7,485 bases of DNA from a virus (taxonomy: Duplodnaviria > Heunggongvirae > Uroviricota > Caudoviricetes): IMG/VR virus record IMGVR_UViG_2675903661_000009, positions 1 through 7,485 of that record, one strand, 5' to 3'. Both the position numbers and the translations under genes were made by a program. This document shows, piece after piece, positions 1 to 4,473 of this stretch. The notes under the pieces were generated by a model. That model saw nothing but the letters and a program-made list of their open reading frames with translations, did no database searches and was not told the origin of the DNA. Positions within the stretch are counted from its first letter, which is position 1. Every line of letters begins with the position of its first letter.

Positions 1-192
1 CTCCTTTTACGGAGAGGCGCTAACCTTTCACTTGCTTAGGATGAATGGTCAGGCCTCGGGTTAAACATGAATGTTTGTCCGGGGCCTTTTCACATCCGGC
101 CTTCAGGTGTTCCCTCCGGCCATCAGCCAAAGGCACCCGCGCATACTGTACGGTTTTTGTCTCCTTCCGGCAATCCGTATTCCGGCTGCCTG

Positions 193-3100
193 TCACGATC
201 TCCGGGTAAAACCGGAATCTGTCGATTTCGCCACCATGAGAGTAAAGGCGTCATATCTCCACCGCACCAGCTCTCTCTTTCTCCCTTCCACATCCCCCAT
301 ATTGCCAGGACCACCTTCAACTCTCATTGTCACTGTAATCCGTGTATCTCCCCCTCCTGCCACCACATCCCATACTCCTGAAACGGTGTCCCCGAGGTTG
401 GTGTACGTGTTAACAGCATTGCCATTTCTGTCAAAACGACCTGAAAAACCCGTATCAGCAATTCTCGGTTCTGCCTTAATGACAACTCTTCCGTTAATCT
501 CTATCGTCAGTGTTCCTGAATAGAAAAAGAAGGGAAGGAGTATCAGCTTGCGATCAAACGAAACATCATCAACAAGAGATACCTCCGCCTTAAAGATGAC
601 ATAACCCTCTCCATACTTGTGGTTCGTAATATGGAGCGTGCCATCACGAGGTTCGAAGGAATAGCCCTTGACGATATCACCGATGATTCTGTCTGCGCTA
701 ATGGTTCCTTTAACAACGCAGTTTTCTGCAATGGTCACGTTATTCAGCGTGCCCGAGTTCGCACTGATATGTCCGCTGATGTCAGCATTGCGGGCCGTCA
801 GCCTGCCCTCCGGCGTCAGGGAGAACGTCGGGGGATTGCCGGACGAGGTGATGCTTACTGCAAACAGTCGCTTCAGGAACACATCGTTCATGAACAGCTG
901 ATTCCCCTGCGCCACAAACAGCGGCGTGGTGTTGCCGTTCTCCGGGTTAATCATCGCGATACGGTCCGCCTGCAGCAGTATATTGCTCAGGGGCTGGCCA
1001 TCAGCATCCTCAATCCCCGCACCTATACCGGCAACATACGGAATGCCGTTTTTTGTTTTCTGCACCTTCAGCATGTACAGCGCAGCCAGGTCGTTATTTG
1101 TGTCTGTCTGCACCCGCTGTATCTGCTGTATGGTGGCGCTCTGGTCTTCCAGGGTTTTACTGACCGTCTGCGTGATTTCATTGCGGGTTTCTGTGATGGT
1201 GGTCTTCATCTCCGCCATCAAAATGTGCGGGCCGGAGACACTCCACTGACTGCCTGTCCCCAGATAACGGGCAGAGGTTTCCACCTGAGATGTGTCTGCG
1301 ATTTTTGCCTCCGAAAACCAGAACTCAAACTGTACCGTCGGGTCATACACCGTAAGATGCGGGACCGCCGTTATCTGATAATACCCCGGCGTCAGCTCAA
1401 TGCTGTCCGGTGCTGCAGGCGCATTAATCCGGAACGTGGTGGTGGCAGGTTCGCCCTGCTGGCCGTAGCTGTTTATCGCCCTGACCGTCAGGGTGTATTC
1501 CCCGGGCGGCAGGCCACTGAAACGGTGCTCCGTGTCGGCAGTGATGGCGCTGGTCACCAGGCGGCTGTTTTCACCGTTTCCGCTGGTCAGGCGCAGACTG
1601 AAGCGCACGCCCTTCACCACCCGCGGCGTGTCCCATTTCGCCAGCGCCAGATACTGACCGTCTGAGGCACTCACCTCCACCGTGAGGTGCTGCACTGCCG
1701 GCGGGATGACGCTGTTCAGTGAACCGGAGAGCGGCTCAAAGCGGGCCCCGTTATCCACGATGGCTTCTTTTTCCGGTACGTGCTGCACTGCCGTGATGGC
1801 AAAGGTGCCGTCCGTGTTTTCCCGGATGGAAACACAGCGGAACAGGCGACGACGCAGTGACGGCAGGGAGAGTCCCCACACACCGTATGTCTCCACGCCA
1901 TCCGGCAGGGCGCTGACCTGTATCCGGTCCGGGGCGGGGTGTGCAGTGATGTCCACGCGCACCGGCTTACCGCTGCCGTTAATCAGGTTCACCGTCGATG
2001 TACCTGTCTCCGGCAGTGTCACCTCACGGTCCAGCGTCAGTGTGCGGCTGGCGGCATCGATGGACAGGATGCGTCCGCCGGTCAGGGTCCCGGCGTAGTC
2101 GTTATCACAGATTTCAATGATGTCACCGGGCGTGTGCCGCAGCCCCTGTGACCCGAGCGTGAAATCCACCGTCTGCGTTTCCAGCAGTTCGGTCTTTATC
2201 ACCCACAGTCCGGCACGGTGGGCCTGACCGCGGCTGGTACAGCCAAACGCATCCATCTTCAGCAGATTGCGCCCGTAGCGCAGGATGGCGTCCGGGTCTT
2301 CCACCAGTTCCGTGGAAGTCTGCCAGCCGTTCTGCGGGTCGGTGTAATTCACCTCCACCGCCGTGTGCCGGTCCTTCAGGGCACTGAAGCTGTAGCGGAA
2401 CCCCACGCCGTTATCATCCACCACCACATCGCTGTTGGTGTACGGCCACACCACATCCGACGGACGGTCCTGAACGAACGTCAGCGTCTGGCCGTTCCAT
2501 ACCGGCATACAGCGCATCGCCGAGCAGAAATCCCCCAGGACATCCCAGACCTTACGCTGCTGTGACAGGTACGCATTGAAAGTCATCCGCGGCTCTGTGC
2601 CCCCGAAACCATCCGGGACCGTCTGGTCACAGTACTGCCCGATGGCATACAGTGCCCACTTGTCCACGTCCGGGGCCCCCAGGCGTTTTCCCATCCCGTA
2701 GCGCGGGTGGGTCAGCATGTCCCACAGACACCAGGCCGGGTTATTGCTGTATGCCGGTTTCAGACTCCCGTCCCAGATACCGCTGTAGGTGCGTTTTTCC
2801 GGGTCATAGTTTGACGGCACCTGAATGATGCGACCACGGATATGGTAGTTCACCGTCAGCTGCTGGCCACCAAACTGCTCCGCATCCACCTGCAGCCCCA
2901 CAATGGCCGTGTTCGGGTAGCACTGTTTCACATCGATGATTTCGGTGTATGACGACCACAGCGTTCTGTTCTGCAGCTGGTCCGTGGTGCTGTCCGCCGT
3001 CTCCCTGACCATCCGGATGTTAAAGGGGCGCTCAGGGAGATTATTCAGAATCACCGACGTCAGGTACTGCGAGGTGGTCTTGCCGTTAATGGTGATATCC

Positions 3101-3552
3101 TTCTCCGTCACCCAGTTACCGTTACGCTCAAGCTGAATCAGCAGGCGGACAGAAGAGGGATTACGGTCACCCTTTGAGGTGGTCTCCACCAGTGACTGCA
3201 CCCCGAAGGTGACCCGCAGACGGTCAATGTTCGCTGACGTGATGGTGCGCGTCACCGGCTTTGCCTTCGTCACCTCCACGCCCAGTGCGGTTTCAGCCCC
3301 GGAAGACTCAAAGCCTTCCGGCGGTGTCTGCTCCTGCTCCCCGGCACGCCAGACGGCGGTCACACCGTGTATCACGGGATTACCGTCCGTGTCCGTCAGC
3401 GGGGTTTTGTTCACCAGAATACTCTGCAGTCCCTTCACCGGACCTTCCACCGGTCCCTCACCGATGGCATCAATCACGCTCATCATCTGCGTGGATTTGA
3501 GATTGTCCTTCGCCTCACGCGGTGTGTGCCCCTTGCCGCCCCCTTTACCCAC
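193..3552 (-). CDS. J: Tail tip host-specificity protein J (central tail fibre), about 1119 aa
   Basis: Minus-strand ORF 193..3603 in the track. From the internal GTG at 3550-3552 the product reads [22 protein letters not shown]..., which aligns with the lambda gpJ N-terminus ([22 protein letters not shown]) as I recall it. Similarity continues across most of the length (e.g. [36 protein letters not shown]). The tool's TTG start at 3603 lies 17 codons upstream without matching homology. Stop TGA at 193-195. Confidence 0.9.
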
Positions 3553-3557
3553 TCTGT

Positions 3558-3568
3558 CCCCCTCTCCT
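3558..3568 (-). promoter_or_regulatory. Shine-Dalgarno region for J (AGGAGAGGGGG), 5 nt upstream of the GTG start
   Basis: Minus strand reads ACAGGAGAGGGGGACAGA-GTG-GGT-AAA; the purine-rich AGGAG/GGGGG block is at appropriate spacing from GTG 3552..3550. Confidence 0.5.
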
Positions 3569-3590
3569 GTCTGATGTCTGAATCTGTTTA

Positions 3591-3625
3591 TGCCAGAAAA
3601 CAACAGGCACCCCGGAGGGTGCCTG
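3591..3625 (-). terminator. Intrinsic-terminator-like hairpin (9-bp GC-rich stem, 4-nt loop) followed by a U-rich tract on the minus strand; possible attenuator upstream of J
   Basis: Plus 3604-3612 caggcaccc pairs perfectly with 3617-3625 gggtgcctg, loop cgga. On the minus strand the stem is followed by UUGUUUUCUGG (plus 3603..3593). It sits about 40 nt upstream of the J start codon. Confidence 0.4.
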
Positions 3626-3755
3626 TGTCATGACGGAATAAAATTTCTGAAACTCTTCACATTTCCGGCAACTGCCTGTAGCCGCAATAATGACGCTGCG
3701 TTACTTTTTTGATGCCTGAAAAATAACTCCATAACGTTAATCTTCATCGTTATTT

Positions 3756-3793
3756 CCCGCAGCTCCGCTAACTCTGCGGGATTTTTTTATTTT
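3756..3793 (+). terminator. Plus-strand rho-independent terminator (7-bp stem, 11-nt loop, T-tract ATTTTTTTATTTT), antisense to the tail operon
   Basis: Plus 3756-3762 cccgcag pairs perfectly with 3774-3780 ctgcggg; a run of 7 T, then A, then 4 T follows at 3781-3793. On the minus strand the hairpin is flanked by A-rich sequence, so terminator polarity is plus only. The T-tract abuts and overlaps the stop codon of I (3793-3795). Confidence 0.45.
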
Positions 3794-4473
3794 CATCCCC
3801 GCCCGATAACCACCACTTTCCCGTCTCCGCCCTCATCACGGGTGCTGATATCCTGGGATATCCGTCGTGAACCAACCAGCATTTCACCGTAAGGCACCGG
3901 CATCGGGTTACCCTGGGCAATCATGTTGTCCAGTGACGAAAAATACGTGTTCTGTTTACCGTTATCCGTACTTTTGTATTCCGGCGTCTTTGCCTTCGGG
4001 GCCAGCATCTGAGCCACACCACCCAGTATCATGCTGGCACCCAGTGAGAACAGCATCGTGGTGGCAGTCAGCCCTCCGGCACTCAGGGCTGCGCCCCACA
4101 ACGCCATCGTTGCACCGGCTGTGAAGAAAGAGCCCACGATGGCTGCTGCCCCCAGCACCACCTGAAAAACACCATTTCCCCCGGCTCCGGCCAGTCGCGG
4201 CACAATGTGGATGACCGCTCCCTCACCCAGTTGTTCGTGAAGACAGGCATACACCGCCTCCGGCGCGGTATCCTCACCGGCAATACGTATCTGATACCAG
4301 CCTTCGTTCATCTGACAGCGGAATCCCGGCACCTGCAGCGACAGGGCACGGATGGCCTCCGCTGCCGTGTTCACATACAGGCTGATGCGGCGACCAAATC
4401 GTTGTAAATCCCCGTGAAGGCAGATGCGGACCAGTGGCGGTGACGCCAGACAGAATGCGTTCGTCGTTGCCAT
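3793..4473 (-). CDS. I: Tail tip assembly protein I, 226 aa
   Basis: Minus ORF with ATG at 4473..4471. The product (ICLHGDLQRFGRRI ... GKQNTYFSSLDNM ... VVVIGRG) resembles lambda gpI (223 aa in lambda, from memory), including the Gly/Ala-rich hydrophobic segment. Its 5' end overlaps the 3' end of K by 103 nt in another frame, as in lambda. Possible SD GAGAGG about 11 nt upstream. Confidence 0.85.
   Translation of the reverse strand: MATTNAFCLASPPLVRICLHGDLQRFGRRISLYVNTAAEAIRALSLQVPGFRCQMNEGWYQIRIAGEDTAPEAVYACLHEQLGEGAVIHIVPRLAGAGGNGVFQVVLGAAAIVGSFFTAGATMALWGAALSAGGLTATTMLFSLGASMILGGVAQMLAPKAKTPEYKSTDNGKQNTYFSSLDNMIAQGNPMPVPYGEMLVGSRRISQDISTRDEGGDGKVVVIGRG

What the first reader, a model, noticed from the sequence alone, without database searches (positions are those of the whole stretch)
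3756..3793. Canonical intrinsic terminator oriented against the tail operon, abutting the I stop codon
A perfect 7-bp stem (cccgcag/ctgcggg) with an 11-nt loop is followed on the plus strand by ATTTTTTTATTTT. On the minus (tail operon) strand it is flanked by A-rich sequence, so it would terminate only plus-strand transcripts. That implies either a plus-strand transcript starting within 3630-3750 (a short antisense or small RNA) or a barrier protecting the tail operon from convergent transcription. I could not find a convincing sigma70 promoter by eye; the best candidates (TTGATG at 3709-3714 with a weak -10) are poor.
Basis: seen in the sequence. Interest (0 to 1): 0.45.

Follow-up and report, generated by a model that had tools for sequence, protein, structure and literature searches.

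The report
Terminator of known prophage sRNA EcOnc22
The hairpin is a real transcription terminator that ends a small Hfq-binding RNA (EcOnc22/23/24, already detected experimentally in E. coli O157 prophages) transcribed against the phage tail genes from a small insert between genes I and J; what the RNA does is still unknown.

Summary
Window 3755-3781 folds into an 8-bp G+C-rich hairpin (-13.2 kcal/mol, z -3.9). On the plus strand it is followed by T7-A-T4, whose last T is the first base of the I stop codon.

The spacer is 98.6% identical to the I-J spacer of prophage Sp15 (VT1-Sakai) of E. coli O157:H7 Sakai. Tree et al. 2014 mapped the Hfq-bound sRNA EcOnc22 there (~85 nt on northern, destabilised in delta-hfq; copies EcOnc23/24 in Sp14/Sp11). 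Their northern probe and an RNase E-CLASH read match the window's plus strand (3724-3758 and 3714-3746). The Hfq peak maps to 3711-3771.

New here:
- The I-J junction is a moron hotspot. Lambda has 61 bp; other classes have ~240-850 bp holding one to three sRNA modules, or sodC plus an sRNA body.
- Across 35 distinct copies the stem and T-run are invariant while the loop varies.
- Most copies carry a near-consensus promoter (TTCACA-16-TATAAT).
- The 39-aa ORF on the opposite strand is not conserved.

Targets and function remain unknown. Verdict: real, ordinary in kind, already known.

The parts
3755..3781 (+). Terminator hairpin: 8-bp stem (U CCCGCAG / CTGCGGG A) with an 11-nt loop
   Evidence: Sequence. 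Fold -13.2 kcal/mol, z -3.9. Stem arms invariant and loop variable in 35 distinct copies.
3782..3793 (+). U-tract of the terminator (T7 A T4). T3793 is also the first base of the I stop codon (TCA, 3793-3795, read on the minus strand). It is the probable 3' Hfq-binding tail.
   Evidence: The T-run is 7/8 invariant. The role of the U-tail in Hfq binding is established knowledge (Otaka et al. 2011, cited in PMC4104026).
3698..3789 (+). Predicted EcOnc22-type sRNA (about 75-92 nt). The 5' end is inferred at G3698, or alternatively G3714. The 3' end is in the U-tract.
   Evidence: Northern ~85 nt and Hfq-CRAC peak. Peak maps to window 3711-3771 through the CLASH anchor. Probe maps to 3724-3758. 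Conserved GCGTTA lies 7 nt after the -10.
3714..3746 (+). Candidate seed region: unstructured, with conserved motifs ACUCC (3727-3731) and UUAAUCUUC (3738-3746). It is the arm recovered in RNase E-CLASH hybrids.
   Evidence: Exact match of the CLASH arm. Conservation 0.86-0.92. No consensus pairing in RNAalifold.
3686..3691 (+). -10 hexamer of the sRNA promoter. It is AATAAT in the window and TATAAT in most copies. The aligned -35 position (3664-3669, TCCGGC) is degenerate in this allele.
   Evidence: Alignment. The independent scan finds TTCACA-16-TATAAT (11/12) and TTTGCA-16-TATAAT (10/12) at the homologous place in L038 and L001. No promoter is called in the window.
3643..3664 (+). Most conserved block upstream of the promoter (16/22 invariant). 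It is CRP-like, TCTGA-N6-TCACA at 3646-3661. It could be an activator site or an UP element; its function is untested.
   Evidence: It is the single 1-mismatch match in the window, where 0.26 are expected by chance. Spacing to the -10 is non-canonical for class II (inference).
3603..3626 (-). Sense-strand hairpin plus T-run just upstream of J. It is not part of the sRNA but bounds the inserted module, and is the positional counterpart of the hairpin in lambda's 61-bp I-J spacer.
   Evidence: 10 pairs, 7 GC. (-23.1 kcal/mol, z -5.5). Lambda-type spacers.
3796..4473 (-). Tail assembly gene I (flanking gene)
   Evidence: Pfam Lambda_tail_I, 2.1e-15.
193..3552 (-). Tip attachment / host specificity gene J (flanking gene). 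The start is most likely GTG at 3552.
   Evidence: Pfam FNIII-A_GpJ, Ig_J, Phage-tail_3 and Phage_Tail_Tip. RefSeq annotation of the Sakai copy.

Best explanation
The hairpin is the Rho-independent terminator, and probably the 3' Hfq-binding module, of a small plus-strand RNA of the EcOnc22/23/24 family. This is a self-contained 'moron' of about 155 bp, inserted between tail genes I and J of EHEC lambdoid prophages and transcribed against the tail operon. Transcription starts from the module's own promoter (-10 at 3686-3691; +1 inferred near G3698). It runs through an A/U-rich, largely unstructured body with conserved motifs (3714-3746) and stops in the T-run that abuts the I stop codon. This keeps antisense transcription out of I.

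Shown: the hairpin and its conservation; the insertion polymorphism; identity with the published locus; and, from the literature on the 98.6%-identical Sakai copies, a plus-strand Hfq-bound RNA of ~85 nt that needs Hfq for stability and forms hybrids on RNase E.

Inferred: the exact 5' and 3' ends, the promoter, and the mode of action. I take the mode of action to be that of a classical Hfq-dependent trans-acting sRNA made in the lysogen, which pairs with host or prophage mRNAs through the conserved single-stranded region.
For: Structure and statistics. Conservation pattern (stem and T-run invariant, loop free). Fixed position next to the I stop in 81/82 non-lambda junctions, and absence in 29/29 lambda-type junctions. 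Identity with Sakai Sp15. EcOnc22 Hfq-CRAC peak on the strand opposite the tail genes, ~85 nt northern, destabilised in delta-hfq, homologues EcOnc23/24; these two are also at I-J junctions. The probe sequence equals the minus strand of the spacer, so the RNA is plus. The CLASH arm GCCTGAAAAATAACTCCATAACGTTAATCTTCA equals window 3714-3746 (+). Strand convention checked with AgvB. Near-consensus promoter at the homologous place in other copies. Only the terminator is a consensus structure and the body is unpaired. No conserved ORF on either strand of the module.
Against: - The experiments were done on the Sakai copies, not on this exact allele. It has 4 substitutions, one at predicted +3 and two just 5' of the stem.
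- The window/Sakai allele has a poor promoter (AATAAT, no -35) and no promoter is called by the scan.
- The predicted length from G3698 (91 nt) is slightly above the ~85 nt northern, and all CLASH arms start at G3714, so the 5' end is unsettled.
- Table S2 of the paper does not flag a Rho-independent terminator for EcOnc22. Its RNAmotif descriptor also fails to flag AgvB, which has one.
- No Term-seq 3' end could be inspected here.
- CLASH hybrids are few (1-2 reads, weak p-values), so a trans-acting role is not demonstrated. The 2021 review lists the targets as unknown.
Confidence: 0.85

Rival explanations
1. Cis-antisense regulator. The plus-strand RNA acts mainly on the phage's own late transcript, to which it is perfectly complementary across the I-J spacer. 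For example, it could create an RNase III site that uncouples I and J expression or tunes J (host-range protein) dosage during lytic growth.
For: Its position opposite the late operon is fixed in all copies. Precedents exist in phages (lambda OOP, P22 sar; own knowledge). The few CLASH hybrids give no strong trans target.
Against: The overlap covers only non-coding spacer more than 140 nt upstream of the J start, and it ends at the I stop codon. The RNA was detected in uninduced lysogens, where the late operon is silent (PMC4104026). Hfq dependence and an unstructured conserved seed are typical of trans-acting sRNAs. In the sodC class and in tandem arrays the geometry relative to J changes a great deal.
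Confidence: 0.15
2. Pure insulator. The hairpin exists to stop any convergent or spurious antisense transcription from entering the tail operon, and the RNA it releases is a functionless by-product.
For: It terminates only plus-strand transcripts and sits exactly at the gene boundary. The same terminator also closes the sodC-containing insert.
Against: The module brings its own promoter aimed at the terminator. Lambda-type junctions, which lack the insert, also lack the terminator, so it travels with the cargo. Body motifs of the RNA are conserved at 0.86-0.92 among otherwise 75-80% identical copies. The RNA binds Hfq and needs it for stability.
Confidence: 0.08
3. Type I toxin-antitoxin pair. 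The plus-strand RNA is the antitoxin of the 39-aa minus-strand ORF (3747->3628), whose start codon it overlaps and which is followed by a strong terminator (3626->3603).
For: The arrangement superficially resembles hok/sok-type loci: a small ORF, an overlapping antisense RNA and a terminator. A sok-like RNA lies elsewhere in the window.
Against: The ORF is not conserved. Start codon, frame and length differ among copies (12, 21, 22, 30 and 31 aa, or none at all). The peptide has no hydrophobic helix and no Pfam match. The downstream hairpin is also present in lambda, which has no insert.
Confidence: 0.03
4. The hairpin matters on the minus strand, as a 3' stabilising stem-loop for processed late mRNA ending after gene I.
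For: It folds equally well on the minus strand (-14.0 kcal/mol, z -3.6) and directly follows the I stop.
Against: The invariant T7 run has no role in that model. The hairpin is absent from lambda-type phages with homologous I genes. It is always accompanied by the plus-strand RNA body.
Confidence: 0.04

Closest known systems
EcOnc22 / EcOnc23 / EcOnc24 of E. coli O157:H7 Sakai (Tree et al. 2014, Mol Cell, PMC4104026; listed as Stx1-phage sRNA with unknown targets in PMC7873438)
   Same: Same locus (I-J spacer of lambda-like prophages Sp15, Sp14 and Sp11), same strand and same terminator. The 291-bp region is 98.6% identical. The CLASH arm matches the window exactly, and the first 23 nt of the northern probe match with 2 mismatches.
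   Different: The window's allele differs at 4 positions (3672, 3700, 3752, 3754), and the surrounding prophage is not Sp15 (different J C-terminus and downstream region). The published work gives no promoter, ends, family analysis or function.
AgvB / AsxR / EcOnc03 'anti-sRNA' family (Rfam RF02702, RF02703)
   Same: Prophage-encoded, Hfq-bound, short, ended by an intrinsic terminator, located at moron sites of lambdoid prophages, multicopy in EHEC.
   Different: No sequence or structure match (no Rfam hit in 3600-3800 at E<=1). Different site (downstream of PR' versus the I-J junction). Longer (~85 versus 51-60 nt). No evidence that it sponges another sRNA.
HnrS (EcOnc10/11/12; PLoS Pathog 2026, PMC13502914)
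   Same: Multicopy Hfq-associated sRNA in the late region of EHEC/EPEC prophages with an intrinsic terminator. It shows what such an RNA can do (it represses hha).
   Different: A different gene: 66 nt, in other prophages (Sp9, Sp10, Sp12) and at another position.
Phage morons (Juhala et al. 2000), e.g. prophage sodC, lom, bor
   Same: Extra DNA between two conserved late genes, present or absent among relatives, with its own promoter and terminator. sodC occupies this same I-J site in other prophages and uses the same terminator.
   Different: The cargo is a non-coding RNA, it is oriented against the operon, and it can occur as tandem diverged copies.
Phage cis-antisense RNAs (lambda OOP, P22 sar)
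   Same: Short transcripts opposite a phage operon, ended by an intrinsic terminator.
   Different: Those overlap the coding or regulatory sequence they control. This RNA overlaps only an intergenic spacer, and it is Hfq-dependent.

Membership tests
Rho-independent (intrinsic) terminator | G+C-rich stem-loop that is stable relative to background | tested here: met
   8-bp stem with 6 G-C pairs, -13.2 kcal/mol, z -3.9. The 11-nt loop is at the upper end of the usual range.
Rho-independent (intrinsic) terminator | Run of U immediately 3' of the stem on the terminated strand | tested here: met
   A then T7 A T4 at 3781-3793. Invariant across copies. The minus strand has no such run.
Rho-independent (intrinsic) terminator | RNA 3' ends map to the U-tract in vivo | not testable with these tools
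   Term-seq data exist (GSE143631) but cannot be read here. The ~85-nt northern size is compatible with the 75-91 nt predicted for starts at 3714-3698.
EcOnc22/23/24 sRNA | Sequence identity with the published Hfq-bound region, northern probe and CLASH reads | tested here: met
EcOnc22/23/24 sRNA | Location in the I-J spacer of a lambda-like prophage, on the strand opposite the tail genes | tested here: met
Hfq-dependent trans-acting sRNA | Binds Hfq in vivo and is destabilised without it | not testable with these tools
   Published for the Sakai copies (Hfq-CRAC in 3 datasets; 'Destabilised' in delta-hfq). Not tested for this allele.
Hfq-dependent trans-acting sRNA | Terminator with a U-tail of at least 6, plus a single-stranded conserved seed | tested here: met
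   U7 tail. Conserved unpaired 3714-3746.
Hfq-dependent trans-acting sRNA | Validated mRNA target regulated by base pairing | tested here: inconclusive
   Only 1-2-read CLASH hybrids (yjbJ/ECs5028 through CCAUAACGUU; ECs5349) with weak statistics. The review lists the targets as unknown.
Moron | Insertion between adjacent conserved genes, absent from related phages | tested here: met
   61-bp spacer in lambda-type phages versus ~240-850 bp elsewhere.
Moron | Own promoter and own terminator | tested here: met
   Terminator as above. Promoter at 10-11/12 consensus in other copies; weak in this allele. Prediction only.
Type I toxin-antitoxin | Conserved small toxin ORF overlapped by the antisense RNA | tested here: not met
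   The ORF's start, frame and length are not conserved. No Pfam match.
AgvB / AsxR (Rfam RF02702/RF02703) | Match to the covariance model | tested here: not met
   No hit in the spacer at E<=1. As a positive control, AgvB was found in Sakai Sp10 at 96.5 bits.

The most novel reading that the evidence does not exclude
The EcOnc22-family module is a regulated, portable 'antisense cassette'. A conserved CRP-like or activator site (3643-3664) would couple its expression to host physiology. The RNA would act both in trans on host mRNAs and in cis on the late I-J transcript to tune the dosage of the host-range protein J. Its terminator and body would serve as the landing pad at which further antisense cargo, such as sodC or extra diverged sRNA copies, is acquired.
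Probability: 0.12. Interest if true: 0.55.

Novelty: already known. Interest (0 to 1): 0.3.

Why it matters
The family occurs in about 15% of complete E. coli genomes (801 of 5426), with a median of 3 and up to 9 places per genome, almost all in EHEC/EPEC-type prophages. The RNA binds Hfq, yet it has no known target. Related prophage sRNAs (AgvB, AsxR, StxS, HnrS) have each turned out to rewire host regulation or virulence. The family alignment, predicted promoter, candidate seed and conserved upstream block from this analysis give concrete handles for testing its function. As a scan finding, however, it re-discovers a published sRNA and its terminator.

Tried and rejected
- **Rfam.** cmscan of the whole window at E<=1 gave nothing in the spacer, so the RNA belongs to no curated family.
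- **Pas sRNAs.** PasA-D (bioRxiv 2026.05.13.724894) lie near the Q/lysis genes, not at I-J. Rejected.
- **HnrS.** This is EcOnc10/11/12, a different RNA. Rejected.
- **Direct use of published coordinates.** They are in NC_002695.1 and differ from the RefSeq v2 record by about +135. Taken at face value they would have put the Hfq peak on the sense-strand hairpin near J. I resolved this with the AgvB control, the probe and the CLASH read.
- **Supplement string search.** My first search for probe fragments failed because of OCR errors in the stored table. The probe turned up on reading the table itself.
- **39-aa minus-strand ORF and type I TA model.** Rejected because the ORF is not conserved.
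Rejected because recovered RNA fragments begin at 3711-3714.
- **Covariation in the stem.** None is possible, because the stem never varies. The argument rests instead on the contrast between stem and loop.
- **RNAalifold of the body.** No conserved structure apart from the terminator.
- **CRP site.** The core matches 9/10 but the spacing is non-canonical, and one such match per window is not rare by chance (45 of 200 shuffles). I kept it only as a hypothesis.

Full report
**1. What is there**

The window is a lambda-type tail operon on the minus strand. The 226-aa ORF at 3793-4473 is tail assembly protein I (Pfam Lambda_tail_I, 2.1e-15). The long ORF ending at 193 is the tip attachment protein J (FNIII-A_GpJ, Ig_J, Phage-tail_3, Phage_Tail_Tip). 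The ORF upstream of I is K-like (JAB + NlpC/P60).

Between the I stop codon (3793-3795) and the most likely J start (GTG at 3552) lie about 240 bp of non-coding DNA. Phage lambda has 61 bp at this position.

RNAfold gives an 8-bp stem (3755-3762 with 3774-3781), an 11-nt loop and -13.2 kcal/mol. Shuffles average -5.3 +/- 2.0 kcal/mol (z -3.9), and none of 200 folds as well. The stem is followed by U7-A-U4 on the plus strand, and the last U is the first base of the I stop codon. On the minus strand no U-run follows the hairpin, so it is a one-way, plus-strand terminator.

**2. It is a published sRNA locus**

The spacer is 98.6% identical to the I-J spacer of VT1-Sakai, which is prophage Sp15 of E. 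coli O157:H7 Sakai, and 80-87% identical to many other Stx and lambdoid prophages. At megablast sensitivity it occurs in 801 of 5426 complete E. coli genomes, with a median of 3 and up to 9 places per genome. No record annotates a gene in the spacer apart from one spurious hypothetical protein.

Tree et al. 2014 (PMC4104026, Table S2) list EcOnc22 as follows:
- an Hfq UV-crosslinking peak at NC_002695.1 2,902,714-2,902,774, plus strand, in Sp15;
- confirmed by northern at ~85 nt;
- destabilised in a delta-hfq strain;
- homologues EcOnc23 (Sp14) and EcOnc24 (Sp11).

In Sakai the tail genes are on the minus strand and the peak lies between J (ECs_2944) and I (ECs_2945). EcOnc23 and EcOnc24 lie in the I-J spacers of Sp14 and Sp11 with the same geometry.

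The paper's coordinates refer to an older genome version, so I anchored them by sequence in three ways:
- **Strand control.** Rfam finds AgvB in Sakai v2 on the same strand the paper gives, about 137-146 bp higher. The strand convention therefore holds and the coordinates are shifted.
- **Northern probe.** The probe 'EcOnc22/23/24' is the minus-strand sequence of the spacer. Its first 23 nt match Sakai Sp15 exactly, and match window 3736-3758 with two mismatches. The detected RNA is therefore plus-strand.
- **CLASH read.** In the RNase E-CLASH table of Waters et al. 2017 (PMC5286369), the EcOnc22 arm at 2,902,717-2,902,749 reads GCCTGAAAAATAACTCCATAACGTTAATCTTCA. This is an exact match to window 3714-3746 on the plus strand.

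It follows that v1 coordinate = window + 2,899,003, and that the Hfq peak is window 3711-3771 (+). That runs from the body of the RNA into the terminator loop. The three Sakai copies are identical to each other over the module and differ from the window at four positions.

A 2021 review still lists its targets as unknown (PMC7873438). A 2026 paper on a multicopy prophage sRNA, HnrS, concerns EcOnc10/11/12, which is a different RNA. The Pas sRNAs lie near the Q/lysis genes.

**3. Anatomy from comparison of copies**

I collected I-J junctions from 111 loci in viral and genome collections. They fall into discrete length classes.

| Class | Loci | Content |
|---|---|---|
| 60-61 bp (one Citrobacter locus has 72 bp) | 29 | Lambda type. 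Only a sense-strand hairpin plus T-run before J |
| ~235-261 bp | 40, including the window | One sRNA module |
| ~337-345 bp | 21 | One sRNA module plus further sequence not examined |
| ~422-426 bp | 3 | Two regions matching the module |
| 716 bp | 1 (L008) | Three diverged regions matching the module |
| 715 bp | 1 (L109, Citrobacter) | Terminator motif absent; content not examined |
| ~850 bp | 15 | sodC plus a promoter-less sRNA body |

The ~850-bp class holds a periplasmic Cu,Zn superoxide dismutase gene (Sod_Cu, 3.9e-32). It is oriented against the tail operon and has its own hairpin. It is followed by an sRNA body without the promoter block, and then by the same terminator.

The terminator motif lies 7-10 nt from the I stop in 81 of 82 non-lambda junctions and in none of the 29 lambda-type junctions. 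The I-J junction is therefore a moron hotspot. Wherever I identified the inserted cargo it points against the tail operon, and the terminator travels with it.

An alignment of 35 distinct module copies, 71-98% identical to the window's, shows the following in the sRNA sense:
- **Upstream block.** 3643-3664 is highly conserved, with 16 of 22 positions invariant.
- **Promoter.** The -10 box is TATAAT in most copies, with TTCACA or TTTGCA 16 bp upstream. An independent scan scores these 11/12 and 10/12.
- **Start.** A conserved GCGTTA begins 7 nt after the -10 and is followed by a U-run.
- **Body.** A variable stretch is followed by the conserved motifs ACUCC and UUAAUCUUC.
- **Terminator.** Both stem arms are invariant (7/7 and 7/7) and the T-run is nearly so (7/8), while no loop position is invariant (0/11) and the loop tolerates a 5-nt insertion.

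The stem never varies, so covariation cannot be scored. The contrast with the loop and flanks is what a hairpin selected for structure would show. About 21% of the other transcribed columns are invariant. That comparison is rough, since the copies are related.

RNAalifold finds only the terminator as a consensus structure, and the body is A/U-rich and unpaired. This is the usual layout of an Hfq-dependent trans-acting sRNA.

The window/Sakai allele has AATAAT at 3686-3691 and no -35 (TCCGGC at the aligned position).

**4. Unsettled points**

*The 5' end.* The alignment points to +1 near G3698, which gives a 91-nt RNA. The northern says ~85 nt. All CLASH arms start at G3714, where a weak TAnnnT box (TACTTT, 3702-3707) could also place a start and give 75 nt. 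The uniform start at 3714 may equally reflect RNase trimming after U3713.

*The upstream block.* It contains TCTGA-N6-TCACA at 3646-3661, which is 9/10 of the CRP core. One such match per window is not rare by chance (0.26 expected; 45 of 200 shuffles). Its centre is -44.5 from G3698, which is not a canonical activation position, or -60.5 from G3714, which is close to class I. It could also be an UP element. I keep it only as a hypothesis.

*Function.* This is unknown. The CLASH hybrids are yjbJ/ECs5028, through a perfect 10-nt complement to CCAUAACGUU, and ECs5349. They rest on 1-2 reads with weak statistics.

**5. Alternatives considered**

- **Type I toxin-antitoxin.** The 39-aa ORF at 3747->3628 is overlapped by the RNA. 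However, its start, frame and length differ among copies, many copies have no such ORF, and it has no Pfam match. Rejected.
- **Pure insulator.** The terminator comes with its own promoter and a conserved RNA body, and it is absent where the insert is absent. Unlikely.
- **Minus-strand mRNA-stabilising hairpin.** This does not explain the invariant T-run.
- **Cis-antisense action on the late I-J transcript.** This cannot be excluded. It is disfavoured because the overlap is purely intergenic and far from the J start, and because the RNA is made in uninduced lysogens.

**6. Verdict**

The hairpin is the intrinsic terminator of the EcOnc22-type Hfq-binding sRNA. The kind of element (prophage moron sRNA) and this particular locus are already in the literature, so the novelty is 'already known'. 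What this analysis adds is the family-level anatomy: the promoter, the conserved seed, the upstream block, tandem arrays and the shared site with sodC. Interest is modest. The RNA is widespread in EHEC and still without a known function, but nothing found here departs from known biology.

Noticed in passing
window 4-138 (-): A sok-like antisense RNA (Rfam RF01794, 51.8 bits, below the gathering score of 59; E 1.4e-9) lies just downstream of the J stop codon. This suggests a hok/sok-type type I toxin-antitoxin moron after J. The region is 99.4% identical to an unannotated stretch of phage 1720a-02.
   Followed up: partly
window 3603-3626 (-); lambda-type loci such as L088 spacer: A strong sense-strand hairpin plus T-run (-23.1 kcal/mol, z -5.5) sits just upstream of J. 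It has a positional counterpart in lambda's 61-bp I-J spacer (AAACCGCCTGCGGGCGGTTTTGTC). This is a conserved terminator-like structure inside the Q-antiterminated late operon, and its role is unexplained.
   Followed up: partly
L021 2190-3033 (and 14 other loci of the ~850-bp class): In these prophages the I-J junction holds a Cu,Zn superoxide dismutase gene (sodC, Sod_Cu 3.9e-32) antisense to the tail operon, with its own hairpin. It is followed by an sRNA body that lacks the TATAAT promoter block and by the same terminator. That RNA may be a remnant or may derive from the sodC 3'UTR.
   Followed up: partly
L008 2181-2897; L004, L005, L007 (~425-bp class): Two regions (~425-bp class) or three regions (L008) matching the sRNA module, 75-95% identical to the window's, lie in one I-J spacer. 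Diverged modules therefore stack at this site.
   Followed up: partly
window 3643-3664 (+): This is the most conserved block of the module outside the terminator (16/22 invariant) and it resembles a CRP site (TCTGA-N6-TCACA). The window/Sakai allele lacks a -35, so an activator might be needed. The spacing is non-canonical from the predicted start.
   Followed up: partly
window 3552-3603 (-): The mechanical ORF list starts J at TTG 3603. Alignment to lambda J ([13 protein letters not shown]) and the RefSeq annotation of the Sakai copy both favour GTG at 3552. The 51 nt upstream are probably untranslated.
   Followed up: partly
L085, L087-L101, L110-L117 (genome contigs): Many hits to protein I in assemblies labelled Streptomyces, Neobacillus, Pseudomonas, Bradyrhizobium and others are short, low-coverage contigs carrying lambda or E. 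coli prophage sequence. They are most likely contamination or spike-in rather than real hosts.
   Followed up: no
L109 (Citrobacter meridianamericanus) 2148-2863: This locus has a 715-bp I-J spacer without the CCCGCAG...CTGCGGG terminator motif. It probably holds a different insert at the same hotspot.
   Followed up: no
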